From Naegleria gruberi (Eukaryota): DNA of 64,000 nt. Where the stretch lies: the NCBI GenBank assembly GCA_000004985.1, contig GG738857.1. One strand, written 5' to 3'. Shown piece after piece: positions 1,004 to 40,542 of this stretch (the first letter of the stretch is position 1; every line of letters begins with the position of its first letter). The position numbers were made by a program, and so were the translations under genes. Below the pieces are notes generated by a model that saw only the letters and a list, made by a program, of their open reading frames with translations, had not been told where the DNA came from and made no database searches.

Positions 1004-2422
1004 ATGTCATCACATCAACTGCCACACATCATCTCACTGTTCTCGATTATAATCCTCATCATATCTTCAATCCACTGCGAACAATTCGTCTTGGGTGGCT
1101 CATTCACCATGAAATCCAGAACATCAGACTCATCTGTCACCAATCACTTTATTAAAAATCTTGCACTGTACAATACAAAAAACAATGAACTGTCAGCATT
1201 TTATAATATCCCACCTGATGGCCCCATTAACGTAATTTATTATGAACCTCGTTGTGATATGATGTTTATCGGAGGAAAATTCACAACCATTGATGGAGTG
1301 AAAAGTGGACCCATTGCTGTGAAATTATTGGCGAGTAGTGGAGGAAACACAACTCAAAATCAGTGGCAATCGTTGGGTGTATTTGATAGAGATATATGTA
1401 TGGGGGAATGGTCGGATGGAGCTGAGATTATGGATATTGAATTGTACTTTTCAAATTTTGTAAAAAGTTGTCAACCAAGTATTGTAATGGTTGGTAAATT
1501 TACAAAGGCAGCTGGTATTAGAAATTTGAATAATATTGTCATGTTGGATACGAAGAGTTTGAAATGGGAAGTGTATGCTGGAGGAAATAATTTGAATGGA
1601 TCTTCGTTTAATGGAATTAGGGCAAATTCATTGAGAGCTGCTCTGTATCATGATGATTCGTATTTGTACGTTGGAGGTGATTTTGATGGATATTTCAAAA
1701 GATATAAGGATCAGAAATGGGAAACTCTTCTTCAGGGACAATTGGATGGTCCAGTAACTACCATTTCAATTCAGAATAATCATATTTATGAGGATATCAT
1801 TGTTGTGGGAGGTCAATTCACAGTTCCTAAGCAGTACATGTTTCTATTCAAGCCATCGAAGAGTGTTAATTATGTGAGACATTTTAAAAAACCAACCAAA
1901 TTGATTGCACCATCAGTTGAATTCCTAACTGCCAATCAGACAAGTAGGAGAGGTGTGAAACAACTTGTGGTGAGTGGAGATCAATTGTTTGCAGGTGGTG
2001 CTTTTTCACATGAATCTGCAACCAATGGAATTTACAATAATTATCTGAGTTTAACTATTGAGGGATATGTAGCAGCCTCTTCTGAAACTTTGAACACTGT
2101 CTTTGAGAATAGTACAGTGTCGTCAATGGGCAAGTGTAAACCTCCATATAGATCTTGTAAGAGAGGATCTGTGGCTATCATCAAGAGGGATTTTATTTAT
2201 TATCCTGAAGAGAAGGGATATTATTATGATCCAGATCTGACATTATGCATTCATAGATCAGTGAATGATATTGACCAATTTAAACTTGCTATTGAAGGTG
2301 AGGAAGATACTGTGAATGATGTCATGTTCTTACCTTATGCTGCATCGAATTGGATTCAATCATCCTTACTGCTAACAGTTTTTTGTTTAATGAATGCATT
2401 GACATTTATTTATACTATATAA
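1004..2422 (+). CDS. Secreted, possibly GPI-anchored Kelch-type beta-propeller protein
   Basis: 472-aa ORF with an N-terminal signal peptide (IISLFSIIILIISSIHC). It has repeated GG-F blade motifs (FIGGKFTTIDG, YVGGDFDGY, VVGGQFTV, FAGGAFS) and a C-terminal hydrophobic tail after a small-residue stretch, which reads as a GPI-signal. Confidence 0.5.
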   Translation: MSSHQLPHIISLFSIIILIISSIHCEQFVLGGSFTMKSRTSDSSVTNHFIKNLALYNTKNNELSAFYNIPPDGPINVIYYEPRCDMMFIGGKFTTIDGVKSGPIAVKLLASSGGNTTQNQWQSLGVFDRDICMGEWSDGAEIMDIELYFSNFVKSCQPSIVMVGKFTKAAGIRNLNNIVMLDTKSLKWEVYAGGNNLNGSSFNGIRANSLRAALYHDDSYLYVGGDFDGYFKRYKDQKWETLLQGQLDGPVTTISIQNNHIYEDIIVVGGQFTVPKQYMFLFKPSKSVNYVRHFKKPTKLIAPSVEFLTANQTSRRGVKQLVVSGDQLFAGGAFSHESATNGIYNNYLSLTIEGYVAASSETLNTVFENSTVSSMGKCKPPYRSCKRGSVAIIKRDFIYYPEEKGYYYDPDLTLCIHRSVNDIDQFKLAIEGEEDTVNDVMFLPYAASNWIQSSLLLTVFCLMNALTFIYTI

Positions 2423-5400
2423 ACAACATTGGCTTCTTCCAATAATTGTTGTTGAAGAGTGTGAGCCTTATTGAATACTGTATATTCAGAGGTAAAGACA
2501 AATCTAGAGAAGGTATCACCAAGATTGATGAGAATTTGTCGATTCAAGTTTTCAAATGTTTCCTTCACAACCTTTTCTTCAATTTCTATAACTGGAACAG
2601 GAGCATTCTTTGTGGCAACCTTGATATCTTGATCAACAGCTTCAATATCCACAGAGAATAATTCATAAGATTCATTCTTTTTGATAATGCTCTTGTAGAG
2701 GAAGAGGAATGCATTTCTACATTTGGATGGAATATTGACTTCTGTTGGTGCATTCGTCTTGATATAATTGTTATAAATATACTTGGAGAACTTTGGAAGC
2801 CTTTCCAAGTCATTACTATCCAAGAATGATTTGTTTGTTTTGATATCAGTAAAAAGATAAATATTCTCCAATGAGAACTCCTTTTCACAGAAAACTTCAA
2901 AGAGTCCATAACCTTCCTCATTATCCAAAACGACGCTCATATCCTTGTTGATAATTTCATCATTGGATGATTGTCTATTTTCTGGCTCGCTAGCTCTTTC
3001 CGTGTTTCTGACCTTTCCTTTGATCTTGTAGTTTGCCAATACCAACAGAGCATAACCACCAAATGTTAACATGTAGGTGAACACGTACAAAACTTCAAAG
3101 ATGAATGAAACCATATCTGTAACGAGGGCTTTTTGGAACATTTCTTCAGATTGGAATCTGAATGATAAACTACTAAGACCAAGTACTTGATTGAAGAAGA
3201 GGAAAATAAAGCACAAAATGTAGAGCATCATTTCCATTCTGAAATAAAGAGGACCGTCCAATGAAATAAACCATGTATAGAGTTTCTTGAATGGATTTGT
3301 GTAATTTTTCTTAAAGTTAATGGTATTAACATCAAACTCAGATGTTGGCTCCTTACGTTTGCTTGATGCTCTTGCTACTCTTTCCTTTTCTTGTTTATGA
3401 GATCCTACAAAGTCAAATATGGTAACCAGAATAATCATTACACTAAATACAAATACTGTGGTTGTGTAGGAAATAGAAACAATGTAGGTGTAAGCTGCTG
3501 AGCTAATGGCTCCAGTTCTAACTAGGATGACCCATAATGTCCAATAGAGCAAATTGATGCCAGCAAAAACGCAAACAATGGTTACAAATAAAGCAGTAGA
3601 GGTGGTGTAACGAAGCATTTTGAATATTCTTTCGCTCTTCTTTTCGTCTCCTCTTGTCTTGGCAATTAATTGATACAAATATTTCATAAATTGGAATCTG
3701 AATACTTGTAATACATATGAAAGAATAGCCGTCAAATTGAGTGTGTTGACAAGAATAGCAACAATATTAGCAATCACATTAGCAGCTGTATCACCAGCTT
3801 CCCACATTTGAGAATTACCAGAGTAGAGTTGAGATACTAGAACACTTCTTTGGATGATATAAACCAAAACACTTTCAATGATCAAAGCAATCATACCCAA
3901 GTATGGAGTTCCCAAACGAGAGGAAATTGGTTGCTCCTTTCTAAAGATAATTAATAATGTTAGGATGATAGTAGACATTACAAAGTAAAAGATACCGAAT
4001 GCAATTTGAGCACTATACAATCCAGTTACTACCTGCTTAACAATTGGTGTCATCTCTATTGTTTTTTGTTCCAAGAATGTGGAGAACATTGTGGTGTGAG
4101 TACAGGCACAATCAATCATTTGAGTAGCAGGATTATAGCCCACCAATGTACATCCGTCTGTGCTCCAAGCTCCACTACGTTCGTCATAATATCTACATGC
4201 AAAGGTTGATGTATTGGAAGAATAATTGGAAACAGTAGACAAATCCAAGTTCAATTTGAAGGAGAGAATGATTGGAGTTGTCAAGTTAGCCAATGGTAAA
4301 ACGCTTCCCTCTTGTAAGAACTTGAAGTCATTAGCAATAGATGTGGAAGGAGTACTTTCAGTAAAGTTATTGGAGAATGGAAGATTTTGATAGGAAATTA
4401 AAGATGTACCAGCACTCTTTGAGAAACCATCATATTTGGCCAAGATACTGGATATGTCCATTCCAATAGAACTGTCTCCTGATGAGAGAGTTTGATTGCC
4501 TGATGTTGGTCCACTCAATTTGAAGCTAGAAATTGTAATATTGATGAGAGGAGTACTGATTGTTACGGCAGGAAGTTCAGAGGATGATGAGTCCAATACT
4601 GTTGGAACTTGAGAGAGTAAGACAAGTGCGGCCATCTTACTGGTAACCTCTGTCGTTTTATCAGCACCAACACCAGATTGCAGTAAGTTGCCTGAAATTT
4701 CAATTGCTGATTTAACATCATCTTGTGAAATTTTGGATCTAACGTATCCGTACTGCTCAATTTCCTTCTTGTATAAATCTGTAAGAGAATCAGCGAAACT
4801 ACTCATCTTGGTTGTTACTTGGTCAACTACCTTGTCATTAACCGAGTCAGAGGAAGAAGTTAAGGCTTGGAAACTTGACAAAGCAGTAGCAGGATTAGTT
4901 GGATCTATCTTAATGTTTTGGACAATTTGTGAAACCAAATCAGCGTTACCACCACTTCCAGAGGAAGCAACCAAATACGATTGATCGTATGAGGCCACTG
5001 TTACAGCCACTCCTGTTAATTCACCAATTCTAGATGATAATTGAGAAGATGTTCCATTAAATGCAGTTACATTTACAGAAAGAGTCTCAAGTAAATCACT
5101 ATTTCCAAGAGAATCTTTTACATAAACAAGTAATCCAAGAGATCCCACTGTTACTTTCTTGTCTGTACTAATATACGGCAAGTAGGTAGAAATTGTCAGA
5201 TTTGCAGAATACTCAGTCAATCTAATTTGTTTCAAAGAGGTTGGATCAGTAAACCCGATAGCATATTGCAAAGGTTGTAATTGCTCAGCTGCAGCCCACT
5301 GATTAAAGGTAATTGTGAAATAATCAGTGAGTGCATATCCTGATGTTCTATCCAAAGTTACCAAATCACCTTCTGGGGCAGAAGCAGCAGAAATAATTGG

Positions 5401-8400
5401 GATAGTTACAGAACCAGTCATATTCTTGTTAGCAGAATTGAAAATTGCTAAAGAAATAACAACATAAGAACTGCCTGAAATATAGTTGGTTGTACTCAAT
5501 GTAATTGCTGGGGTAAACAATAAGGAATTACCTTGACGTGTATAACCAGTAATAAGACCAGTTGATTTGAAAATATTAGTGAGAGTACTCTTGACCATCA
5601 TTGATACACTCCAAGAGAAAGTCAAGGAAGAAGAACAATTTCCTTCACATCCCAAGAATGATTGAACAATTGATTGATTCAATGCCACTTTAGAAACAAC
5701 AGCCTCAATAGCTTTTCCAGCAGCAAGTTGTTTTCCTACATAAACTGAAGGCAAACCAAAAATGTCCAATGAAGGAACATTTACATCAACAACCGGTACT
5801 ACCAAGACAGTCATATTAAATTTGACAGTGTTGGATACACGACTAGCAAAACCTTTTGGATTAGTATAGAAAACATTAGCCGAGAAAATGTACAAAGCAG
5901 GAGCCTTGAGTTCTGATGGATTAACCATAAGTATTCTATCATTAGTTTGGTTAAATGGAGTTGAAGTGTTTGTATTACCTTGGCAATTTTCACAAATCCA
6001 TTGGTAAACCAGATTGGAGCTGGCGAGAGAGGAAAATTCGTCTGATATTATTTCCAATGAAACAGAAGTAACATTTTGATAGTAAACTCCTGATGATTTT
6101 TTCAAAGAAATAACTAATGGATTGAGGTTGACGCTACAATCGGTAGAAGAGTATCCAGATTGACAGCTACATTCGTTATAAGAAATACAAGTACCCTTAG
6201 ATGAACAAACGTTGCTGGAATTAGATGAAACTGAGTTGCAAGTAGTGAGCTCGCATTTAGTTCCGAAATAGTTTGCATTACATGAACAGATATCATTACC
6301 AGTACATGTTCCCTTTCCATTACAAACAGAGGTGTTGTTAGAATTGATACCAAAACATTTTGTTACTGAACAAGATGGTCCAAACCAATTAGCTGTACAA
6401 TTACAGGTATTGTAGTCCAAACATTTACCATTTCCAGAACAGACTGTGGAGTTCAAATAATTGATTCCATAACAATTGAATTGTGAACATGTGGATCCGT
6501 AATAATTCTTTGAACAATTACAGTTGTTTGGAGAAACACATGAGCCCAATCCGCTACAAACATTGGATGAATTGAATTGAATATCATGGCAAGAGTAACT
6601 TTCACAGTTTGATCCATTGAAACCTGATTTACAGCTACAAATATTTGGCGCAATACAGGAACCATTGCTTGAACAAGCCAAAGAGGAATTAAAGTTGTAT
6701 CCAAAACATGAGAAGCTTTCACAATTAGATCCAGAATATCTTGAGGTACAGTTACATTTGTTTGGTTGAGTGCACGAGCCTCTTCCAGAACAAACATTCT
6801 TATCAGAATAGACGACTGAGTTACAATAATAAGTACCACAGTTTGATCCAGAGTATCCTGCAATGCAAGAACAATTATTTGGTGAAATACAACTTCCTTT
6901 TCCAGAACAAGCTAATGGATCAGAATAATCAAAACCAGAACATTGGTAAGTTTGACAATTGGTGCCATTATATCCAGAGAAACAAGTACAGTTGTTTGGA
7001 GAAGAACATACTCCAAAACCAGAACAAACTGAGGAACTATTCTTTGAAATATTAGAACAATTGTAATTTTCGCATTGTTGTCCATAGTATCCTGAATTAC
7101 ATGAGCAAATATCAGCTCCATTGCATTTACCATTACCAGAACAGACCTTAGAATCATTTGATAACAATCCATAGCATTGGAATTTTTCACAATTATTTCC
7201 ACCATATCCTGCAATGCAAGAACAATTATTTGGTGAAATACAACTTCCTTTTCCAGAACAAACTAATGGATCAGAATAATCAAAACCAGAACATTGATAA
7301 GTTTGACAATTGGTGCCATTGTATCCAGAGAAACAAGTGCAGTTGTTTGGAGAAGAACATACTCCAAAACCAGAACAAACTGAGGAACTATTCTTTGAAA
7401 TATTAGAACAATTGAAATTTTCGCATTGTTGTCCATAGTATCCTGAATTACATGAGCAAATCTCAGCACCATTGCATTTACCATTACCAGAACAAACCTT
7501 AGAATCGTTTGATAACAAACCAAAACATTGGAATTTGTCACAATCATCACCACCATATCCTACAATGCAAGAACAATTATTTGGTGAAACACAGCTTCCT
7601 TTTTCAGAACAAACTCCTGAATTGTTATAGAGTTTTCCATTACAATCATAATTTTCACACATGTTACCATAATAACCTGATTTACATGTGCAAACATTTG
7701 ATGAGGAGCAAACACCATTTCCAGAACATACACCAGTATTATTGTTGAACGTTCCATAACAGTAATAAGTCTGACAACTTTCTCCAGAGTATCCATTTTG
7801 ACAGGAACAATTATTTGGTTTAACACAAGCTCCCTTTCCTGAACATACAGATGAATCATTGTAATAAACGTTGTAACAATTATAATCAGAANNNNNNNNN
7901 NNNNNNNNNNNNNNNNNNNNNNNNNNNNNNNNNNNNNNNNNNNNNNNNNNNNNNNNNNNNNNNNNNNNNNNNNNNNNNNNNNNNNNNNNNNNNNNNNNNN
8001 NNNNNNNNNNNNNNNNNNNNNNNNNNNNNNNNNNNNNNNNNNTGTTATTACAATAATAAGTTCACAGTTAGTTCCGTAGTATCCATTGACACAAGTGCAT
8101 ATATTAGGATTGTAACAAGTTCCATGACCTGAGCAAACATATGAAGTGTTAGTATTTGTAATTCCATTACAAGTCCAATATTCACACAAGGATCCAACAT
8201 AATTGGTGTTGCAAGTACAAGTATTTGGACCACTACAAGTACCTCTACCACTACAAACATTATAACTACCAGCAAGAGTACCGCCACATACGAATGTTTG
8301 ACAATTAGCATTGCCATATCCACTGTTACAATTACAACTATTTGGTGAAGTACAGGTACCATGACCTGAACATACTGCGTCACTGGTTGCATTTACATTA

Positions 8401-9041
8401 AAACAAACTGGTGTCTGACAAGTAGAGCCAACATATCCATAATTAGGAGCACTTCCATCAGAATAATCAGTACTCCAACAAACATATCCATCAGAACCAT
8501 ACAAGACTAAATCTCCATTATTTTGAAGAACTAAAGCAAAAGGAGCAGTACCTCCAGTACAAGCTTCTGACAATGTCTTTACAACGTTACCATTGCCATA
8601 AATTGCCAAAGTACCGTTAGTTTCTAATTTCAATTGATATGGAGCTGTTCCCTTCTTATAGGTTCCACTCATCCAACTGGCATAATTGCTGCCAGCACTA
8701 TTATCAAACAATACCAAGTTTCCTGAGGTTTGCATCTGTAAATAGTATTGTCCAAAATAGAGCGAGGAAAAGGTTGCTCCTGCAGTCATGATATTATTCT
8801 GATTTGAAATTAAAGCAGTGGATGTTGTAATATCCAAGCAAGTACATTCATCATCGCCTGTACATAAACCATGTCCAGAACATACACCACTAGTTCCAAT
8901 CTGTGTTGATTCTACTCCTGTACATGTATGTTGAGCATGGCTGGAATGGCTCATACAAATTCCTACAATGATTAGGATAATAAGGTATATACAACTAGTG
9001 CTAGAAAGACGTAACCTAGGGGTTGCTTTCCTATTTGTCAT
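2410..9041 (-). CDS. Giant adhesion-GPCR-like receptor. Domain order (approximate + coordinates): signal peptide (~8.95-9.04 kb), EGF (~8.86-8.99 kb), bulb-type (B-) lectin (~8.43-8.80 kb), long array of about 30 EGF/tenascin-like Cys repeats (6.12-8.42 kb), Ser/Thr-rich heavily N-glycosylatable stalk (4.2-6.1 kb), GPS motif (CRYYDERSGAWSTDGCTLVGYN...CACTHTTMFS, ~4.09-4.21 kb), 7TM (~3.0-4.0 kb), C-terminal RGS domain (~2.64-2.91 kb). Interrupted by a 151-N assembly gap at 7892..8042.
   Basis: One continuous 1750-aa frame runs from 7662 to 2410 and stays open upstream to the gap (EGF repeats continue in frame as ...SGYYGNMCENYDCNG). The 8043..9041 segment encodes an N-terminal signal peptide, an EGF repeat and a B-lectin domain (LVLFDNSAGSNYASW...GDLVLYGSDGYVCWS) and begins with Met at 9041. 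Seven hydrophobic helices follow the GPS. The C-terminal region matches the RGS signature (GLFEVFCEKEFSLENIYLF...YIYNNYIKTNAPTEVNI). The ORF-track frame for 7560..7891 (LIIIVTT...) is an artefact of arbitrary gap length. Confidence 0.7.
6856..7557. repeat. Near-perfect tandem duplication, 2 x 351 bp (6856..7206 and 7207..7557, about 97% identity), inside the EGF-repeat coding region. A third, diverged copy begins at 7558.
   Basis: Direct comparison of the two blocks: both begin tcctgcaatgcaagaacaattatttggtgaaatacaacttcc and differ by only a few substitutions. The protein shows the 117-aa unit ...GYGGDDCDKFQCFGLLSNDSKVCSGNGKCNGAEICSC... twice. Confidence 0.85.
7892..8042. other. Assembly gap (151 N)
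   Basis: Run of n characters. Confidence 1.
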
Positions 9042-13767: not shown

Positions 13768-13871
13768 NNNNNNNNNNNNNNNNNNNNNNNNNNNNNNNNN
13801 NNNNNNNNNNNNNNNNNNNNNNNNNNNNNNNNNNNNNNNNNNNNNNNNNNNNNNNNNNNNNNNNNNNNNNN
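13768..13871. other. Assembly gap (104 N)
   Basis: Run of n characters. Confidence 1.
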
Positions 13872-30340: not shown

Positions 30341-30465
30341 CACATTCATTAAAAATCCCTTAATGAAATTGTGCTAACCATCATTAACAAAGATTAGAAT
30401 TTAAAGAATACGTATTTGTCTTAAATTGTGTTTTTGTTTTTAATCAAGTCTTTCAATGGTTGAGA

Positions 30466-32913
30466 ATGTTCATTATTTCGTTTGGAACTTTTCAAAACTC
30501 AAAAAAAATGCAACACCCACTCACAGATGTCAAATTTTCATTTCTTGTTGATGAAACATCAACAATAGGAAACTCGCATGATGACCTGATGGGAAAGTTT
30601 CATGATACTTTAAATTATTCCTTCCGATCCCATAAAAATCGTGCCTATCAACTTGAATGTGAATTGTTGGAGATTTTACTTCACGGAAATTATCATAATC
30701 ATGTTATGAAGAATAGTTTTGAGATTGCAGATCCGTATCGATCAGTAATAATTCAATTGATTTCAAAGTGTAATATTGGTAGTGGTTGTGTGAAATTTTT
30801 ATCGGATCGATGGAAGAGAGATCGAGAATTAATGAAAATTGCACTGAGTGTTAACGGTTATCAATTTGATGAAATGTTGCCAGAATTCCAGAAAGATAGA
30901 GAGTTGATTTTGATGGCAATTAGAAATGAGAAGCAATCGCTGGTAGACAAACACTCTCCAGAGAAAATTATCACACAAATATTGAGCGATTTTAGTGAAG
31001 ATATAGAGCTTATGATGGAATGTTGTAAGAAGAAAAGACTTTGCTTTTATTATCTCAGTGAAAAATTGAGAGATAATGAAGAGTTTGCTGCATTTTGCTT
31101 TTCTGAATGGTGCGGTACGTCTGAAATGGATAGTCTTTCTGAGAGATTGAAAAACAACCGAGAATTCATCTCAAAAATTATTGAAATCAACCCAGAGATA
31201 GTGACCAGATGTGGAAAAGAAATTGTGGATGATGAATTAATGTTAAAAGCACTCAAATATGGTCTTTCTTTGGATCACTTGTATAACTCTCCCCTTTTGA
31301 CAAGAGAGCTAGCATTAGAATATTCCAAAACAAATCATTGGTCCTATATTCCTAAACGATTTGCCAAAGACAAAGAAATCTGTTTAAATATTGTTGAAAA
31401 ATATGGTTCCAGATTAACAAATCTGGATAGTGAAATGCAATATGATATGGATGTTGTTAAGGTTGCAGTGAAGAACTATCCGCACGTTTTTAAAGACCTA
31501 CCAGAAGAAGTGAAGTTACAATTTGCTAAATCTTGCCGTGAAACAATCATTGATATTGTACATAATGATTCAAACTATCATCTTTATAACTATTTCAAGA
31601 ATTACATGGGAGAGGACATTGATTTTTATGTTTTTGCCTATACCAAAGACTGTAATTGCAATCCTCCAGCATCTTTATTAGAAAATAGAGAATTCACTTT
31701 GAAATGTCTGCTACAAAATCATTTACGGATCAAAGTACCAGCTCAATATAAAACAGATACAGAAATCATCAATGCCTATTGGAATTGTAAAAAAAATCCA
31801 ACAAGGAGAATCGAATGGGATTGGGAGATTATTCTTCAAAATTCTGAAATCACAATGGAAGCTTTAGAAAGTTGGTCCAATGAAGAAAAATTTGATTTAG
31901 AAGTTACCCAATTTGAAAATGCCTCTCTAGATATATTATCAAATAGAAAAATCATTCTATTGGCAGCCAAGAATGAATTACTTTCCAATATTTCAATTCT
32001 TCCAGATCAGTTTAAAGTTGATAAGGAAATTGTCATGCCAATGTTGAAGAAGAATCCAAAGCAATTAGAAAATACTCCTCTCAATCGAAACAAAGAATTT
32101 TTGTTGGAATTTTTGAAAGAAAACCCCTCAGTTGATTTGAACTTGGTAGCTCATTTCATTACACCTTTTGGAGATGAATTTTTACGAAGTGCCATTGAAT
32201 TGAACGGATTACTTTTAGAACATGCCAATGCGGAAATGAAATCAGATAGAGAGTTAGTTTTGAAAGCTGTTTCTAATAAGTGTCACGCTCTAGCATTTGC
32301 TAGCGATTTATTGAAACAAGATTTTGAAATTGTAATGCAATCGGTTAAACAAGATGGCTCTACTTTACTTTATGCCAATGATTCTTTGAAATCAAACAGA
32401 GAACTCGTATTGGAAGCATTGAAATCTGGATATTTTGACGAAAACAAGGATATTGACTGGAATGATCCTGAAATACTTTTGAATTTTGCAATGAGTAGAG
32501 CACCAGTCTATTCTATTCCATCGTTATCAGAAGAAATTAGTTCTGATTGTAATCTCTTTGAGAAACTCTTGTCATATAATGGAGAAATGCTTCAATTTGC
32601 TTCAGAAGCTATCAGAAATGATGAAAATCTAGTTCTTCTTGCAGTGAAATCATCTTGGAGTGTATTAGAATATGCCTCTCAAGAAAGACAAAATGATCTC
32701 TTAACAATTCTAAGAGCTCGTCAACTAGCTGTTAGAAAGTTTAGCTCCCTAGATATGGCAGCTGATGATTGGGCACCCTACAGGCCTCCATCTTCTGTAA
32801 CCACTGATAATGTATGGTATGAGAGAGTATCAGCTGATTTTGAAAAAAGAGTATGGACTCAATATCTCCTAGATTGTAAGCAGCAAACCAGAAACCCCTA
32901 TGCAATGAATTAA
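30466..32913 (+). CDS. DUF4116-repeat protein (alternative start Met at 30508)
   Basis: About 815 aa built of more than 10 repeats of the DUF4116 consensus (DRELxLxAVxxNGxxLEYASxELxxDxExVxxAV, e.g. DRELMKIALSVNGYQFDEMLPEFQKDRELILMAIRN; NRELVLEALKSGYF; ENLVLLAVKSSWSVLEYASQERQND). Confidence 0.55.
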   Translation: MFIISFGTFQNSKKMQHPLTDVKFSFLVDETSTIGNSHDDLMGKFHDTLNYSFRSHKNRAYQLECELLEILLHGNYHNHVMKNSFEIADPYRSVIIQLISKCNIGSGCVKFLSDRWKRDRELMKIALSVNGYQFDEMLPEFQKDRELILMAIRNEKQSLVDKHSPEKIITQILSDFSEDIELMMECCKKKRLCFYYLSEKLRDNEEFAAFCFSEWCGTSEMDSLSERLKNNREFISKIIEINPEIVTRCGKEIVDDELMLKALKYGLSLDHLYNSPLLTRELALEYSKTNHWSYIPKRFAKDKEICLNIVEKYGSRLTNLDSEMQYDMDVVKVAVKNYPHVFKDLPEEVKLQFAKSCRETIIDIVHNDSNYHLYNYFKNYMGEDIDFYVFAYTKDCNCNPPASLLENREFTLKCLLQNHLRIKVPAQYKTDTEIINAYWNCKKNPTRRIEWDWEIILQNSEITMEALESWSNEEKFDLEVTQFENASLDILSNRKIILLAAKNELLSNISILPDQFKVDKEIVMPMLKKNPKQLENTPLNRNKEFLLEFLKENPSVDLNLVAHFITPFGDEFLRSAIELNGLLLEHANAEMKSDRELVLKAVSNKCHALAFASDLLKQDFEIVMQSVKQDGSTLLYANDSLKSNRELVLEALKSGYFDENKDIDWNDPEILLNFAMSRAPVYSIPSLSEEISSDCNLFEKLLSYNGEMLQFASEAIRNDENLVLLAVKSSWSVLEYASQERQNDLLTILRARQLAVRKFSSLDMAADDWAPYRPPSSVTTDNVWYERVSADFEKRVWTQYLLDCKQQTRNPYAMN

Positions 32914-35116: not shown

Positions 35117-38100
35117 ATGTTAAACTCGGGGACATCAGCAACTGCCTCACATAGGAGGATACACAGTGCTAGTGTCTTTCAGTTCTCTCGTCCCTCCATC
35201 TATAAAAACATTTACGGACAAGAGCAAAAGAAAGAACTTCAATTCACAAATTTATCAAAAATCAACAAGGCAGCATGTTCAGCCGAATCAACAGTTATCA
35301 GTTGTAATCAGGACTTTTTTGCTTTACCATTCGGAACATATGGTAGTGTGATTAGTAGGTTTTATTTTGATGATCAAATTGCCAAATGTCATTTAAGTTA
35401 TGAAACATTCAAATATTGCTGAGGATTCAAAAGTTAGAAGAGCAAATGCCAGTCCACCACTCTTATCTGAACACTCAGGACTTGTTCACGATCACTCCTT
35501 CTCTCCATTTCTTCCATCTGATGGCACTCATCTATTTTCAACATGTTCAGCAGATTGTACTGTTAAAATTTGGAAAATTACACAAAAGGAACAAACAATT
35601 CATGGACATTGTGAAGATTTACAACAAGTTATCACATTGAAAGGTCATGATAAGAAGGTCAATACAGGAGATTTCCATCCGAGTGTGAATAATATTTTCG
35701 TGAGTGCGAGTGGAGATAATACTTTGAGAATTTGGGATATCACAACACAGAAAGATATGATTGTTTTGAGGGATGATTTTGATGATATGGTTCAATCGTG
35801 GGATTGGTCTTCAACTGCATCAGTTTTATATACCTCGAGCAGAGATACTGTGGCAAGAGTTTATGATCCTAGAACAAAGTATGCAATTGTGGTAAGTTTT
35901 CTCATAATTTTCAAAGATTAATTTCATTGGATTTAATTTGTAAAATTTATTCGAATATTATTATGTTCAATATTGGTTTGGAAAATAATGAATGGGAAAA
36001 TAACAGTCAGGAAAAGCTCACGATGGTAAGAAGGGTTTCAGAGTTGTTTGTACCAATCACGATCAATTTTTCACAGTTGGTTTCAATGGATCTGGATCTC
36101 GTGAATTTGCCTTGTGGGATTTGAGAAAAGGTATGAGAAAGGGTCCTCTCACAAGAGAAACAATCAATGACATGACACCAACCCAGCTCTTCCCATTCTA
36201 TGATTCTTCATCTCATCTTTTATATTTGGCTGGTAAGGGAGATACCAAGATGAGAGTTTATGAAATTGATAGTAATTCAGAGCCGTACGTTCACTATTTG
36301 AGTGAATTTAAGCTTACCACAACCAATACTGGTCTTGCCATGTTGCCAAAACGTTTGTGTGATACGAAATCATTCGAGGTGGCTCGTTTTATGAAGTTGA
36401 ATGTGGAGAGTGTGGAAACTTTCAATTTTTACGTTCCAAGAAAGAAGGAACAAGCCGACATCTTCCAAGAGGACTTGTATCCGCCAGTTCCAAGTGGAAA
36501 ACCATCAAACTTGTCATCAGCTGATTGGTTTGGAGGAAAGAGCTGTATGCAAGACCTTATTTCATTGAGACCACCAGAACAAGAATCCTCACCAACTGTA
36601 TCAACTGGCACAAAAATAGCAAGAGGAAGATCGTATGCCTTAAAATCTGCTCCCTCAGTTGATAATGGACTCAATACCAAAGCAAGTGATGAATTTTCGG
36701 ACTCACTCCTTATCAATTCATACGGTTTCTATTTGAATAGTTATTTGAATATTTGGCTTCTCAAGGAGATGAAATGGAAACGATTCTTCTTTGCCCTCCA
36801 CAAGACAAAGAACAATTCGGATACGAATAGCGTAATTATTTATGGTGAGAGTCCTTCTCAGGTCAAAACAATCAGAGATGAAATTTCCAATAAGGAATCC
36901 AATTTGAATAGAAATGAATTCATTTCCAAATATTCAAGATCCAAGAATTGTGGAGTGATTTTCCTTCACCAACTCGTCTACATGCACAAAGCTTACACTT
37001 TGGGAGATGAAAAATTCTCAGACAATCAAACAATTGAAGTCATGTACACAGATATTGTTCAGAATGACAATGTCACCCTATTCTTATCGAGTGATTCTGA
37101 TGAAACTGTCAAATCATGGGTTGAAACCATTATGAAGCTCTGTAAAAAGAAGGATATTGTAAAGAACAACAAGACATTCAAGGGTTACATTTTACAACTC
37201 AAGGAACATGAGGATGATATTCCTGCCTATTGGGCAAAGAGATGGTTAAGCATTACAGAGGATTACATTCTCTTGTATGCTAGTAGAAAGGCAAGCGTGC
37301 CTGAGACTGCTTTGAAATTCCCATCAAGAAAAGGATCCTCCCAGTTCTTTGATTCTCTTTCTCATTACAAGGTCTATGAAAATGTTGATGCTTGTGAATT
37401 TTGTGATAGCATGGCTCTCAATGGAGACGAAAAGAATTTGTGTTTTACTTTGAGATTTGAAGGAAAATCAAAGAAGGACAGAAATATCATTTACTTTTTA
37501 GCAAATGATGATCAACAAAAAGAGTCAATCTTTGAAATGGTCGGTATCAATAGTGGAGCTATCAAGCTTGGTGCTTCAGAAGAGGAAAAGCTCTTGGATA
37601 AACTTGGTCTTGTTGCTCATGAAGAACCAGAAAAAATTGAAGAATCTGTCACTCCAGTCGATGAAGGAATTGGTAAAATTCAAGTATGGCCAATTTCTAG
37701 CTCTATTGCCAATGAAGATATAGAAGATTTATTCTCAGTCTTTGGTAAGATTGATAATACTTTCATTGATCCAAAGGAAGGATTTGCTCTTGTGACTTAC
37801 CATCAAAAGAGTTCTGCTTTGGCAGCTGTCGTACTCAACCAATCTACATTTGATGCTAACAAGATTAATGTTCAAGTTTTGTCAGATGATGAAGTTTATG
37901 AAGCTGGCTTTGTAAAGGTTGATAATCTTAGCCCTCAATGTTCGAAACAAGATTTACGTGATTTGTTTGGAACATTTGGTACCATTCAAAAGATCAAACT
38001 GTGGCGTGATCAAAACAAATCTACAAACTTTAGTGGATTTATCAAGTTCAAGACAAAAGAACAAGCAGAGATGGCCTTAATGTTTAATGGCTCCAAATTA

Positions 38101-40542
38101 TATTACGAAGAAATCAAAGTTACTCTTGTGACTTCTGAAACTGAATTGTCATCTTTCAATCAGGGAGATGATAAGGGTTTTGTCAACGAATATGATCCTA
38201 ATGAAGTCAAAGCAGGAAGACAAAAAGTTCTCATTCAAATCAAGGGTGACAAGAAGATTAGAAGTAGAAAAGTTGAACTTTCACCAAAGAGTGTCAATTC
38301 TGGAGATATTTTCGTTCTCGATTGTGGAGCAACAATTTATGTGTGGAATGGTAAACAGACATCTCGTTTCAAGAAGGCCAGAGGTTTAGATGTTGCTACC
38401 AATTTGAAACTCAAGGAAAGAGGAGGTAATGCTAAAATTCTGATTATGGATGAAGGAAAGGATGATGAAAAGGAGTTGGAGAGACAATTCTGGAATGCCA
38501 TATTTTCCGAATACAAGGATCCATCATTCAAGAAGGAAGATTTCCTTAAAGCAATTCCAGATAAGAAGGCAGGAGGTGACGACAAGGAATTCGAAGAATA
38601 CATTGATAAGAGAACCATTCTCTTCAGAATTGGTTTCACTGAACACAAGTTTGACATGACTGCAGATCCAAAGAGACAAGATGAATATGGAAAGTATCAA
38701 TTGAAAATTGTTAGTAGAGGTGGTCAACCGGCATTGAAAGATTTCAACTCTAACTTTGTCTATGTTTTGGATTGTTGGAGTGAAATTTACATTTGGGAAG
38801 GAAAATTCTCATCCAAGCAACAACGTTCATTTGGAAGAAAATTCGCTTCCAAACTCGAACAACAAGACAAGAGACCAATTTGGACCAGCGTGTGTAAAAT
38901 TGTTGAACACTCTGAACCAATTCTATTCAAGGAGAAAATGTCAGATTATGCAGGTGCTCTTCCAATTGCTGTTTCAAGTGCAGCTCTTGAAGAAAAACAA
39001 GGCAAGGGCAATATTGCTGCCAAGAGAGAACAACATGAAATTGATGTTGATCAAATGTTAAATGCATCGATTGCTCCAAGGGAAGCCATGTTCCACGATG
39101 AATCCCTCTCTGACCAGAACGAGGTCTTTATTTGGAGAGTTGAAGGATTCGAGAAGGTTGAATTCGACTCTAAATTCTATGGACAATTATTTAGTGGAGA
39201 CAGTTTCGTCATCTTATTCAAGTATATCAAGTTTAATAAGGCAAAACATATAATCTACTTTTGGCAAGGAAGAGATTGTTCTACCAATGAGAAGGGTGCT
39301 TCTGCATTGCTAACCATCGATGTTTCTAATATTGATTTGCAAGGTGGAGATGCTCCTCAAATAAGAATAGTTCAACAAAAGGAAACTAGACATTTCTTGT
39401 CCATGTTCCATTCACATTTAGGTTTGGATTCACTCATTATCAATACTGGAAAGTGCATTACAACAGCTCCTGAGACTATTCCAATTAGGAAGAGAATAGG
39501 AGGTGTAGCTGCTTCATCAGCCACAAATGAAGATCCAAACAAGAAGGGATTCCAACAAGCTTTGGAGAATTTGATTATTTACGATGTTCGATGTGTAAAA
39601 TCTCCAATTGCTGACAATGAAAAGCTTGAAAAGACCAAAGCTATTCAAGTTGACCTCTCACCAAATGAATTCAAAAACGTGGAACAACTTTCCCGTCTTT
39701 TCAATTCTAATCACTGTCTCTTAGTATGTACAAAGGACAAGAAGGAATGTTACTTGTGGAAGGGCAAGTATCACAATCAAAAGGAGCTCGAACTCGCTGC
39801 TCACATAGCATTGGATGTGTTAAAATTACCATCCAAACTTATTTCAGTAGATGAAGGAGCAGAAAAGGATGCCTTGTGGAAATTATTTGGTTTGACTGGA
39901 CTTTCTGCAGCACCAATCAAGAAGTACATCAAATCTCAATCAGACAATATCAAGAAGAGAATAGTTCCTAAATTGTATCAATTTTCTGGAGCTACAGGTG
40001 TTGTTGATGTTGAAAGAATTTACAATTATAGTCAGGATGATTTGGATATATTTGGAGTTTTCTTCCTCGATGCCCAGGAAGCTGGTTGCTTCGTTTGGTT
40101 TGGATCTTACTCTCAACATCATGTTCAAAAGGTAGCACTGGAAACAGCCATGAAATACTGTGTGAAACATTACAATAATGGTGAAATGCTTTTACAAGTG
40201 ACACATACCTGTCAAGAACCTAGCTCATTCAAGACTGCCTTCCATGCTTGGTCTTCCTATCGTGACAAGTACATTGTCAATTATTCTAACAATAATCCAA
40301 ATGTTGTAAATAAGGAAGTTGTCATTCCTGCCATGGATATGATCAAGGAATATGCAAGAAAGACCTATTCCTACAAGACCCTACTTTCAGAACAATTACC
40401 AGCAGGAGTTGATGCCACCAAATTGGAAGAATATTTGAGTAGTGAGGAGTTCCAAATGGTTTTCAATATGGGTAGAGAGGAATTTGCAAATCTTTCCAAG
40501 TGGAAACAAGAATCTGAAAAGAGAAAGGTCTACTTGTTCTAA
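35117..40542 (+). CDS. Villidin-like actin-binding protein: coronin-type WD40 propeller, PH-like modules, two RRM-like domains, gelsolin repeats and C-terminal villin headpiece. Proposed join(35117..35342,35434..35891,36007..40542); the first acceptor could alternatively be at 35398.
   Basis: Exons 2-3 encode a coronin propeller (SASGDNTLRIWDI, ARVYDPRT, FFTVGFNGSGSREFALWDLRKG, HLLYLAGKGDTKMRVYEIDSNSEPYVHYLSEFK). Intron 2 (35892..36006, GTAAGT..CAG, phase 0) restores collinearity with coronin. Downstream are PH-like WxxRWF segments, RRM RNP-like motifs (GFALVTY, SGFIKFKTKEQAEMAL), multiple gelsolin-type repeats, and a headpiece (LSSEEFQMVFNMGREEFANLSKWKQESEKRKVYLF). Confidence 0.65.

What the first reader, a model, noticed from the sequence alone, without database searches (positions are those of the whole stretch)
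2410..9041. Giant lectin/EGF adhesion-type GPCR fused to a C-terminal RGS domain
A single reading frame of about 6.6 kb (broken only by an N gap) encodes, in order: a signal peptide, a bulb-type lectin, about 30 EGF-like repeats, a Ser/Thr-rich stalk, a GPS/GAIN-like autoproteolysis motif (C-x-C...CACTHTTMF) immediately before TM1, seven TM helices, and a cytoplasmic RGS box. A receptor that carries its own GAP for the cognate G-alpha is known from plant AtRGS1 and fungal class-VI GPCRs. Combining that with an adhesion-GPCR ectodomain of this size is unusual and is, to my knowledge, not a described architecture. It suggests a self-limiting adhesion/lectin receptor.
Basis: partly seen in the sequence, partly recalled or inferred. 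Interest (0 to 1): 0.7.

Follow-up and report, generated by a model that had tools for sequence, protein, structure and literature searches.

The report
Naegleria lectin/EGF/GAIN 7TM-RGS receptor
This is a real, very large Naegleria gruberi membrane protein that joins a lectin/EGF/GAIN outer part to a seven-helix membrane domain and an internal RGS "off-switch" for G proteins, but the gene is already in GenBank and this exact architecture was published for the sister species N. fowleri in 2022, so it is not new.

Summary
The gene is real and lies on the minus strand (9041 to 2410), broken only by an assembly gap.
- signal peptide and bulb-type lectin;
- 18-19 visible EGF repeats, not about 30;
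- a folded REJ-like plus GAIN region, not a Ser/Thr stalk;
- a GPS motif, seven TM helices and an RGS box with its G-alpha contact residues intact.

The window is Naegleria gruberi NEG-M. The gene is already annotated as a 2075-aa "predicted protein" and has many paralogs on the same GAIN-7TM-RGS chassis.

The novelty claim fails. Bosch, Jeck & Siderovski (JBC 2022, PMC9283941) describe 28 N. fowleri "7TM RGS" proteins, several with EGF repeats, lectin domains and GPS motifs. They showed GAP activity for three of the RGS boxes.

The most likely function is a receptor-GAP, as in AtRGS1, rather than a self-limiting GEF receptor. This is an uncharacterised member of a published family. Interest is low.

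The parts
8934..9041 (-). Start codon (ATG at 9041) and N-terminal signal-peptide-like segment, aa 1-36 (MTNRKATPRLRL...IILIIVGICMSHSSHA)
   Evidence: The hydropathy peak is 2.35 at aa 8-36. A basic n-region precedes the hydrophobic core. No dedicated signal-peptide predictor was available.
8832..8933 (-). Short Cys-rich EGF-like half-module ahead of the lectin (aa 37-70)
   Evidence: This is read from the sequence (CSGHGLCTGDDECTC). The paralog P0014 has the same arrangement.
8457..8807 (-). Bulb-type (GNA-like, beta-prism II) lectin domain. All three QxDxNxVxY sugar-site motifs are degenerate (QTSGNLVLF, ETNGTLAIY, QNNGDLVLY).
   Evidence: Pfam B_lectin gives 23.8 bits, below the gathering score of 32.4. 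phmmer against PDB gives E 9.7e-12 to 1dlp and hits to curculin, gastrodianin, garlic and snowdrop lectins.
8061..8435 (-). Three EGF-like repeats on the N-terminal side of the gap
   Evidence: EGF_2 gives 47 bits in 3 stretches.
7892..8042 (.). Assembly gap (151 N). The reading frame differs on its two sides. It probably hides further EGF repeats.
   Evidence: The GenBank model bridges the gap with an artificial intron.
6136..7890 (-). Fifteen EGF-like repeats with a 39-aa (117-nt) period. The array includes a 351-nt (3-EGF) tandem duplication at 6854..7615.
   Evidence: EGF_2 gives 188 bits and EGF_TEN 155 bits. The repeat register is shown. TRF finds a period of 351, 2.2 copies and 95% matches.
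5056..6135 (-).
   Evidence: There is no direct Pfam hit in the window protein. The region is 45% identical to the N. lovaniensis ortholog P0006, whose equivalent region scores 40.5 bits for REJ PF02010 against a gathering score of 25. REJ is found in 3 of 22 relatives.
4609..5055 (-). GAIN subdomain A (helical)
   Evidence: The AF2 model has helices 19-164, mostly at pLDDT 75-93. Foldseek matches the BAI3, latrophilin and CD97 GAIN structures at E 1e-9 to 4e-6.
4063..4608 (-). GAIN subdomain B (beta sandwich), containing the GPS motif CxC-x-H-T|T-M-F-S-T-F-L. The putative cleavage site lies between T1266 and T1267 of the C-part (nt 4090..4095). The last beta strand is Stachel-like.
   Evidence: Pfam GPS gives 29.5-30.3 bits, above the gathering score of 22.5. 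The AF2 model has strands 180-346. The motif is conserved in 81 of 86 family members.
3004..4047 (-). Seven-transmembrane domain with a GPCR fold and a long third intracellular loop (ICL3)
2431..2967 (-). Cytoplasmic RGS box with an insert of about 45 aa. The motifs EFSLEN, EVNIP and DTFSRF are conserved.
   Evidence: Pfam RGS gives 38-41 bits, above the gathering score of 23.9. phmmer hits RGS16, RGS5, RGS10 and RGS4. Foldseek hits RGS1, RGS9, RGS16, RGS8 and RGS2. Family-invariant residues are listed.
2410..2412 (-). Stop codon. The 3' end overlaps the convergent + strand ORF 1004..2422 by 13 nt.

Best explanation
This locus is the Naegleria gruberi NEG-M gene for one member of the heterolobosean '7TM RGS' receptor family. 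It is already annotated as a 2075-aa predicted protein. The real product is at least 2159 aa plus whatever the gap hides.

The protein is N-out and C-in. A signal peptide leads a large glycosylated ectodomain made of a GNA-type lectin, at least 18 EGF repeats, a REJ-like module and a GAIN domain with a GPS site. A GPCR-fold 7TM bundle follows, and a canonical RGS box sits in the cytoplasm.

The most likely mechanism is a receptor-GAP. The RGS box accelerates GTP hydrolysis on Naegleria G-alpha subunits, several of which exchange nucleotide spontaneously, and so holds signalling off at the membrane. Engagement of the ectodomain with a glycan, particle or cell surface then changes GAP access. 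This might involve shedding at the GPS site and rearrangement of the conserved Stachel-like strand. The precedent is AtRGS1 in plants.

Shown here: the domain anatomy, topology, fold assignments, family membership and conservation. Shown in the literature for N. fowleri relatives: GAP activity and G-alpha binding of the RGS boxes. Inferred: the ligand, autoproteolysis, and the direction of regulation.
For: - Organism and annotation. Three neighbouring ORFs are exact N. gruberi proteins on a 573,072-bp scaffold. P0010, a 'predicted protein [Naegleria gruberi]', is 100% identical to the query on the same scaffold.
- Domains.
- Family. A 7TM-only profile finds 113 cluster representatives among 1.84 billion. 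Even the weakest 7TM hits carry RGS. Every named member looked up is from Naegleria or Willaertia.
- RGS contact motifs. EFSLEN, EVN and DTFSRF are invariant across the relatives.
- Literature. N. fowleri has 28 7TM RGS proteins, several with EGF, lectin and GPS. [quoted passage not shown] GAP activity on the two mutants tested, G-alpha2 and G-alpha3, was lost in the RGS-insensitive G-to-S form (PMC9283941).
Against: - No experiment exists on this N. gruberi protein.
- Transcription across the whole ORF was not checked here.
- All three lectin sugar-binding motifs are degenerate, so glycan binding is uncertain.
- The residue before the GPS cleavage point is Thr rather than the Leu usual in animals, so autoproteolysis is unproven.
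- Nothing shows how, or whether, the ectodomain controls the RGS box.
- A GPCR fold with a conserved Stachel-like strand is also compatible with real G-protein activation.
Confidence: 0.8

Rival explanations
1. The 7TM is a true adhesion-type GPCR that activates a G protein as a GEF, triggered by its tethered Stachel peptide. The fused RGS box then quickly switches the same G-alpha off, giving a self-limiting pulse.
For: - The 7TM has a GPCR fold.
- There is a full GAIN domain.
- Family-wide conservation of H-T|T-x-F-x-x-F-(I/L/V) matches the animal Stachel positions T+1, F+3 and hydrophobic +6/+7 (the animal consensus is from my own knowledge).
- The AF2 model has long TM5/TM6 cytoplasmic extensions.
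Against: - The 7TM profile shows no sequence similarity to any solved GPCR at E<=10, and no member matches a Pfam 7TM family.
- No 7TM-RGS protein has been shown to be a GEF.
- Some Naegleria G-alpha subunits self-activate, and the authors propose AtRGS1-like regulation (PMC9283941).
Confidence: 0.15
2. This is an assembly or annotation artefact. Two or more separate genes, a secreted EGF/lectin protein and a 7TM-RGS protein, are run together across a gap, or the locus is a pseudogene.
For: - An N gap with a frame change lies inside the gene.
- The N. lovaniensis ortholog is annotated as two genes.
Against: - The EGF, REJ-like, GAIN, 7TM and RGS regions lie in one uninterrupted 1826-codon frame in a 33-37% GC sequence, all on one side of the gap.
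- The same order is seen in dozens of relatives from four species.
- The paralog P0014 carries lectin, EGF, GAIN, 7TM and RGS with no gap.
- The N. lovaniensis split falls between TM1 and TM3, which is not a plausible gene boundary.
Confidence: 0.03
3. The RGS box is a non-catalytic scaffold, as in GRKs or axin. The protein would then be mainly an adhesion or endocytic receptor without GAP function.
For: - An insert of about 45 aa splits the RGS box, and Pfam aligns only positions 4-94 of 117.
- Bosch et al. cloned and expressed the RGS box of Nf 7TM RGS1, the N. fowleri protein whose primer-encoded termini resemble this protein. However, GAP data are reported only for RGS2-4.
Against: - The residues corresponding to RGS4 S85, E87, N88, N128, D163 and R167 are kept and are invariant across relatives (RGS4 numbering is from my own knowledge of the 1AGR complex).
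- RGS boxes of three family members are active GAPs.
Confidence: 0.07

Closest known systems
Naegleria fowleri 7TM RGS proteins (Nf 7TM RGS1-4 of a family of 28; Bosch, Jeck & Siderovski, J Biol Chem 2022, PMC9283941)
   Same: - The genus and the chassis are the same: a GPS motif, seven TM helices and a C-terminal RGS box, with EGF-like repeats and lectin domains in the ectodomain.
- Sequence homology covers GAIN+7TM+RGS. N. fowleri P0005 and P0020 are 32-35% identical, with profile scores of 697-903 bits.
- Primer-encoded termini of Nf 7TM RGS1 (NKDMSI ... NVVYLC*) resemble this protein (NKDMSV ... NVVYIV*).
   Different: - This is the N. gruberi copy, which has not been characterised.
- The paper does not mention the REJ-like module, the full GAIN fold, the class-unresolved GPCR fold of the 7TM, or the family-wide H-T|T Stachel-like motif found here.
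Arabidopsis AtRGS1 and other plant or protist 7TM-RGS receptor-GAPs
   Same: Both have seven TM helices followed by a cytoplasmic RGS box. In both, the presumed logic is to keep a self-activating G-alpha off until an extracellular cue arrives.
   Different: - AtRGS1 has only a short N-terminus with no large ectodomain (my own knowledge), so no lectin, EGF, REJ or GAIN.
- Homology between the two 7TM domains could not be tested. The AFDB library was unavailable, and the last homolog search found only the query itself.
Metazoan adhesion GPCRs (class B2: latrophilins, BAI, CD97/ADGRE5)
   Same: - Both have a large adhesive ectodomain with EGF repeats and lectin.
- Both have a GAIN domain with a GPS motif immediately before TM1 (Foldseek E 1e-9 to 4e-6).
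- The Stachel-like pattern T+1, F+3, hydrophobic +6/+7 is shared.
   Different: - The 7TM does not match 7tm_2 or any solved adhesion receptor by sequence.
- Adhesion receptors are not among the best structural matches of the 7TM alone.
- The residue before the cleavage point is Thr, not Leu.
- The cytoplasmic tail carries an RGS box, which no animal adhesion GPCR has.
Polycystin-1 / PKDREJ family
   Same: An REJ module lies directly upstream of a GAIN/GPS domain next to the first TM helix. REJ scores 40.5 bits in the ortholog.
   Different: - There are seven TM helices, not eleven.
- No PLAT domain, polycystin channel domain or PKD repeats were detected.
- REJ is not detected directly in the window protein.
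GPR158/GPR179-RGS7 complexes (class C orphans that recruit an RGS protein)
   Different: In GPR158 the RGS protein is a separate polypeptide that is recruited non-covalently. Here it is fused. There is no sequence homology.

Membership tests
Heterolobosean 7TM RGS family (Bosch et al. 2022) | Seven predicted transmembrane helices | tested here: met
   There are seven hydropathy peaks. The AF2 model has seven helices with pTM 0.80. The positive-inside rule holds.
Heterolobosean 7TM RGS family (Bosch et al. 2022) | RGS box C-terminal to the 7TM | tested here: met
   Pfam RGS gives 38-41 bits against a gathering score of 23.9. phmmer matches RGS16, RGS5 and RGS4. Foldseek gives RGS hits.
Heterolobosean 7TM RGS family (Bosch et al. 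2022) | Sequence homology to Naegleria family members across 7TM+RGS | tested here: met
   N. fowleri P0005 scores E 3e-80. P0020 scores 697 bits. There are many N. gruberi, N. lovaniensis and Willaertia relatives.
Heterolobosean 7TM RGS family (Bosch et al. 2022) | GAP activity of the RGS box on Naegleria G-alpha | not testable with these tools
   This has been shown only for Nf 7TM RGS2-4. Here only the contact motifs are conserved.
Adhesion GPCR (class B2) | GAIN domain fold with a GPS motif immediately before TM1 | tested here: met
   GPS gives 30 bits against a gathering score of 22.5. Foldseek matches the CD97, BAI3, CL1 and ADGRL3 GAIN domains at E 1.3e-9 to 3.8e-6.
Adhesion GPCR (class B2) | 7TM belonging to the secretin/adhesion family (Pfam 7tm_2) | tested here: not met
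Adhesion GPCR (class B2) | Autoproteolysis at H-L|T/S and a tethered-agonist (Stachel) sequence | tested here: inconclusive
   The motif is H-T|T-M-F-S-T-F-L. His-2, Thr+1, Phe+3 and Phe+6 are conserved in 79-81 of 81 members, but position -1 is Thr, not Leu. Cleavage itself cannot be tested in silico.
Adhesion GPCR (class B2) | Coupling to, and activation of, heterotrimeric G proteins | not testable with these tools
   No data are available.
AtRGS1-type 7TM-RGS | 7TM followed by a cytoplasmic RGS box in one polypeptide | tested here: met
AtRGS1-type 7TM-RGS | 7TM homologous to that of AtRGS1 | not tested
   No AtRGS1 sequence or AFDB library was available. The search from the short relative P0104 returned only itself.
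Polycystin-1 / PKDREJ | REJ domain upstream of GPS | tested here: inconclusive
   The window protein has no REJ hit at E<=10. The ortholog P0006 scores 40.5 bits over the region that aligns at 45% identity.
Polycystin-1 / PKDREJ | PLAT domain after TM1 and an 11-TM / polycystin channel region | tested here: not met
   There are only seven TM helices and no PLAT or PKD_channel hit.
Bulb-type (GNA) lectin | B_lectin / beta-prism II domain homology | tested here: met
   Pfam gives 23.8 bits, below the gathering score of 32.4. phmmer against PDB gives E 9.7e-12 to 5e-8 for several bulb lectins across about 100 residues.
Bulb-type (GNA) lectin | Intact QxDxNxVxY mannose-binding motif | tested here: not met
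   All three sites are substituted (QTSGNLVLF, ETNGTLAIY, QNNGDLVLY). This is read from the alignment; the canonical motif is from my own knowledge.

The most novel reading that the evidence does not exclude
The GAIN domain and its invariant Stachel-like strand (H-T|T-x-F-x-x-F) may act on a 7TM whose only output is a fused GAP. That would make it an 'inverse adhesion GPCR', in which mechanical removal of the ectodomain switches G-alpha inactivation on or off rather than activating a G protein. Because named members occur in Heterolobosea (Discoba), far from animals, this would mean that tethered-ligand control of a GPCR-fold bundle is either very old or arose twice. It would also give a tractable system for asking what a GAIN/Stachel does when no GEF step is involved. 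Bosch et al. hint at an adhesion-like function but did not analyse the Stachel, the GAIN fold or the REJ module.
Probability: 0.25. Interest if true: 0.6.

Novelty: already known. Interest (0 to 1): 0.2.

Why it matters
As a discovery it matters little. The gene is in GenBank, and the lectin/EGF/GPS/7TM/RGS architecture was published for the sister species together with biochemical proof that such RGS boxes are GAPs.

It keeps some background value. It shows that an amoeboflagellate far from animals has expanded a receptor family that pairs adhesion-GPCR-like ectodomains (GAIN/GPS, EGF, lectin, NHL, ephrin-receptor-like repeats) with a GAP output. That bears on how G-protein signalling worked before GEF-type GPCRs became dominant.

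This analysis adds a few details:
- a full GAIN fold;
- an REJ-like module;
- a family-wide H-T|T Stachel-like motif;
- a 7TM that is GPCR-fold but of unresolved class and is nearly always inherited together with RGS.

These are refinements, not a new kind of system.

Tried and rejected
- Pfam on the 7TM segment alone at E<=10 found no GPCR family.
- A profile HMM of 17 family 7TM domains against all PDB chain sequences at E<=10 gave only spurious single-helix hits.
- Foldseek of the 7TM-only model against PDB gave no hit at E<=0.001. The top hits were a mix of class A and class B1 receptors, so the class cannot be assigned.
- Foldseek against AFDB50, intended to test similarity to AtRGS1, was not possible because the library was unavailable.
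- The homolog search from the short distant relative P0104, intended to link the family to plant or other 7TM-RGS proteins, returned only the query.
- The look-up of encoding contigs on a neighbouring gene, intended to show the called gene models, found nothing on record.
- The first word-indexed homolog search missed the identical GenBank protein and briefly suggested the gene was unannotated. The profile search corrected this.
- Anantharaman et al. 2011 and Bradford et al. 2013 are not held in the library, so earlier descriptions of N. gruberi 7TM-RGS proteins could not be checked.
- The choanoflagellate GPCR paper (PMC12716839) has nothing on RGS-fused adhesion receptors.
- I considered and rejected a polycystin-1 relative (no PLAT domain, seven TM helices) and a Ser/Thr mucin-like stalk (the region is folded and conserved).

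Full report
**What is in the sequence**

The finding's coordinates enclose a minus-strand gene. ORF listing and translation show two parts:
- an N-terminal part at 8043..9041 (333 aa, ATG at 9041);
- a C-terminal part at 2413..7890 (1826 codons with no stop; TAA at 2410..2412).

The parts are separated by a 151-N assembly gap at 7892..8042. The frame differs on the two sides of the gap, and the last bases before it look frameshifted. So "a single reading frame" is only approximately true. An uninterrupted 5.5-kb frame in DNA of 33-37% GC cannot be chance.

**Domains**

Pfam gives the following:

| Domain | Score | Gathering score |
|---|---|---|
| EGF_2 | 188 bits | 22.1 |
| GPS | 29.5-30.3 bits | 22.5 |
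| RGS | 38-41 bits | 23.9 |
| B_lectin | 23.8 bits | 32.4 (below threshold) |

- **Lectin.** It is nevertheless real. phmmer against PDB sequences gives E 9.7e-12 to the Scilla lectin and 5e-9 to 4e-5 to gastrodianin, curculin, garlic agglutinin and snowdrop agglutinin, over about 100 residues. All three QxDxNxVxY sugar sites are substituted, so mannose binding cannot be assumed.
- **EGF array.** It has a strict 39-aa period. There are 15 units in the C-part plus 3-4 in the N-part, so 18-19 are visible, not about 30. A 351-nt (three-EGF) tandem duplication at 95% identity lies next to the gap. This probably explains the gap and means the true number is unknown.
- **Membrane domain.** Hydropathy gives seven membrane segments. 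K+R counts in the loops (3, 6, 6 inside; 0, 0, 1 outside) fit an N-out, C-in topology with a cytoplasmic RGS box.

**The 'stalk' is a folded REJ-like plus GAIN region**

The stretch between the EGF array and TM1 is only mildly Ser/Thr-enriched. It is 45% identical to its N. lovaniensis ortholog over 760 columns. In that ortholog, Pfam REJ scores 40.5 bits against a gathering score of 25.

An AlphaFold2 model of C-part residues 930-1826, built on 22 relatives, has mean pLDDT 77.9. It shows, in order:
- a helical subdomain;
- a beta sandwich that ends in the GPS strand;
- seven long helices;
- an all-helical RGS domain.

Foldseek against the PDB gives:
- inactive CD97 (GAIN+7TM) at E 1.3e-9;
- the GAIN domains of BAI3, latrophilin-1, ADGRL3 and CD97 at 4e-8 to 4e-6;
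- RGS1, RGS9, RGS16, RGS8, RGS4 and RGS2 for the tail.

So a complete GAIN domain is present, not merely a GPS-like motif.

**The 7TM**

No Pfam 7TM family matches this protein or any of 21 relatives. A profile of 17 family 7TM domains finds no GPCR among all PDB sequences, even at E<=10.

- Foldseek mixes class A and class B1 hits at E of about 0.02-0.2.

"Adhesion-type" is therefore justified for the GAIN/GPS module but not for the helical bundle.

**Organism, annotation and family**

Three neighbouring ORFs (actin, GH63 glucosidase, a phosphotransferase) are exact matches to N. gruberi NEG-M proteins on a 573,072-bp scaffold. A profile search recovers P0010, a "predicted protein [Naegleria gruberi]" of 2075 aa on that scaffold, 100% identical to the query. 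Its model bridges the gap with an artificial intron (...CSGRG|KGACVKPNNC...).

N. gruberi has many paralogs with the same GAIN-7TM-RGS chassis and different ectodomains:
- B-lectin plus EGF (P0014);
- NHL repeats (P0016);
- ephrin-receptor-like repeats plus NCD3G (P0025).

A search of 1.84 billion cluster representatives with the 7TM-only profile finds just 113 proteins. RGS was found in 109 and GAIN-B in 86, always in the same order. Even the weakest 7TM hits have an RGS box, although RGS was not part of the query. Every named member looked up is from Naegleria or Willaertia.

The bundle and the RGS box are thus inherited together in a small, lineage-restricted family.

**Conserved functional motifs**

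The RGS box keeps EFSLEN, EVNIP and DTFSRF. These align with RGS16 and RGS5 and are invariant among six relatives. From my own knowledge of the RGS4-Gi-alpha1 complex, they correspond to S85, E87, N88, N128, D163 and R167, the G-alpha contact residues.

The GPS site reads C-x-C-x-H-T|T-x-F-x-x-F-(I/L/V) in 81 of 86 members. His-2 is in 81/81, Thr+1 in 80/81, and Phe+3 and Phe+6 in 79/81. This parallels the animal H-L|T-x-F-x-x-L-M Stachel, except that Thr replaces Leu at position -1.

**Comparison with what is known**

Bosch, Jeck & Siderovski (J Biol Chem 2022, PMC9283941) report:
- N. fowleri expresses 28 7TM proteins with C-terminal RGS domains;
- several have EGF-like repeats and lectin domains (Nf 7TM RGS2-4);
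- this activity works through a canonical interface, because on the two mutants tested, G-alpha2 and G-alpha3, it is lost in the G-to-S RGS-insensitive form.

Their primer table encodes termini that match this clade:
- Nf 7TM RGS1: NKDMSI and NVVYLC*;
- Nf 7TM RGS4: VVYGI*;
- this protein: NKDMSV...NVVYIV*;
- N. lovaniensis: ...VVYGI*.

7TM-RGS fusions in general are long known in plants, Trichomonas and many other lineages (de Mendoza et al. 2014, PMC3971589).

**Mechanism**

The best-supported reading is a receptor-GAP. The cytoplasmic RGS box keeps Naegleria G-alpha subunits in the GDP form, and the ectodomain senses a surface, glycan or particle and modulates that activity. This is by analogy with AtRGS1 and as proposed for the N. 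fowleri family.

The GPCR fold and the conserved Stachel-like strand do not exclude it. It has no direct support, and the bundle shows no sequence link to any G-protein-activating class.

An assembly or fusion artefact is very unlikely. The part from the EGF array to the RGS box lies in one frame on one side of the gap. An ungapped paralog (P0014) has the whole architecture, including the lectin.

**Verdict**

This is an already catalogued, uncharacterised member of a published family.

A modest residual interest lies in the GAIN/Stachel-to-GAP coupling, the REJ-like module and the class-unresolved 7TM. None of these has been analysed in the literature I could read.

Noticed in passing
window 36112..40542 (+): A 1476-aa ORF combines a coronin-type WD40, a PH domain, two RRMs, three gelsolin repeats and a villin headpiece. 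This resembles Dictyostelium villidin (my own knowledge) with an odd RRM insert. It may also be several genes read through in one frame.
   Followed up: no
window 6854..7615 (-), next to the gap at 7892..8042: A 351-nt tandem duplication (three EGF units, 2.2 copies, 95% identical) lies inside the EGF array. It is evidence of recent repeat expansion and the likely cause of the assembly gap.
   Followed up: partly
window 7836..8240 (approx.), GenBank model P0010: The deposited N. gruberi gene model jumps the N gap with an artificial intron. It deletes about 66 aa of the N-part and 18 aa of the C-part, giving 2075 aa against at least 2159 aa encoded.
   Followed up: yes
N. lovaniensis proteins P0006 (C9374_004465) and P0001 (C9374_004464): The closest ortholog is annotated as two adjacent genes. 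The split falls between TM1 and TM3 of the 7TM bundle, which is almost certainly a mis-annotation (missing exon or frameshift).
   Followed up: partly
N. gruberi paralogs P0016, P0022, P0025: The same GAIN-7TM-RGS chassis is fused to quite different ectodomains: NHL/teneurin-like beta-propellers, SGL, or 14 ephrin-receptor-like repeats plus a class-C 'nine-cysteine' NCD3G domain. The ectodomains have been shuffled modularly on a fixed signalling core.
   Followed up: partly
metagenomic relatives P0110 and P0116: The most distant 7TM hits are short proteins from unnamed metagenomic eukaryotes. They lack GAIN but keep RGS, and in two cases they carry an N-terminal alpha/beta-hydrolase domain.
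   Followed up: partly
window 2410..2422: The 3' end of this gene overlaps by 13 nt the 3' end of the convergent + strand ORF 1004..2422, which has a weak Rax2-like beta-propeller hit.
   Followed up: no
window 30460..32913 (+): An 817-aa ORF is made of at least seven DUF4116 repeats (239 bits).
   Followed up: no
window 13768..13871 and 55616..55665: There are two further N gaps in the window.
   Followed up: no
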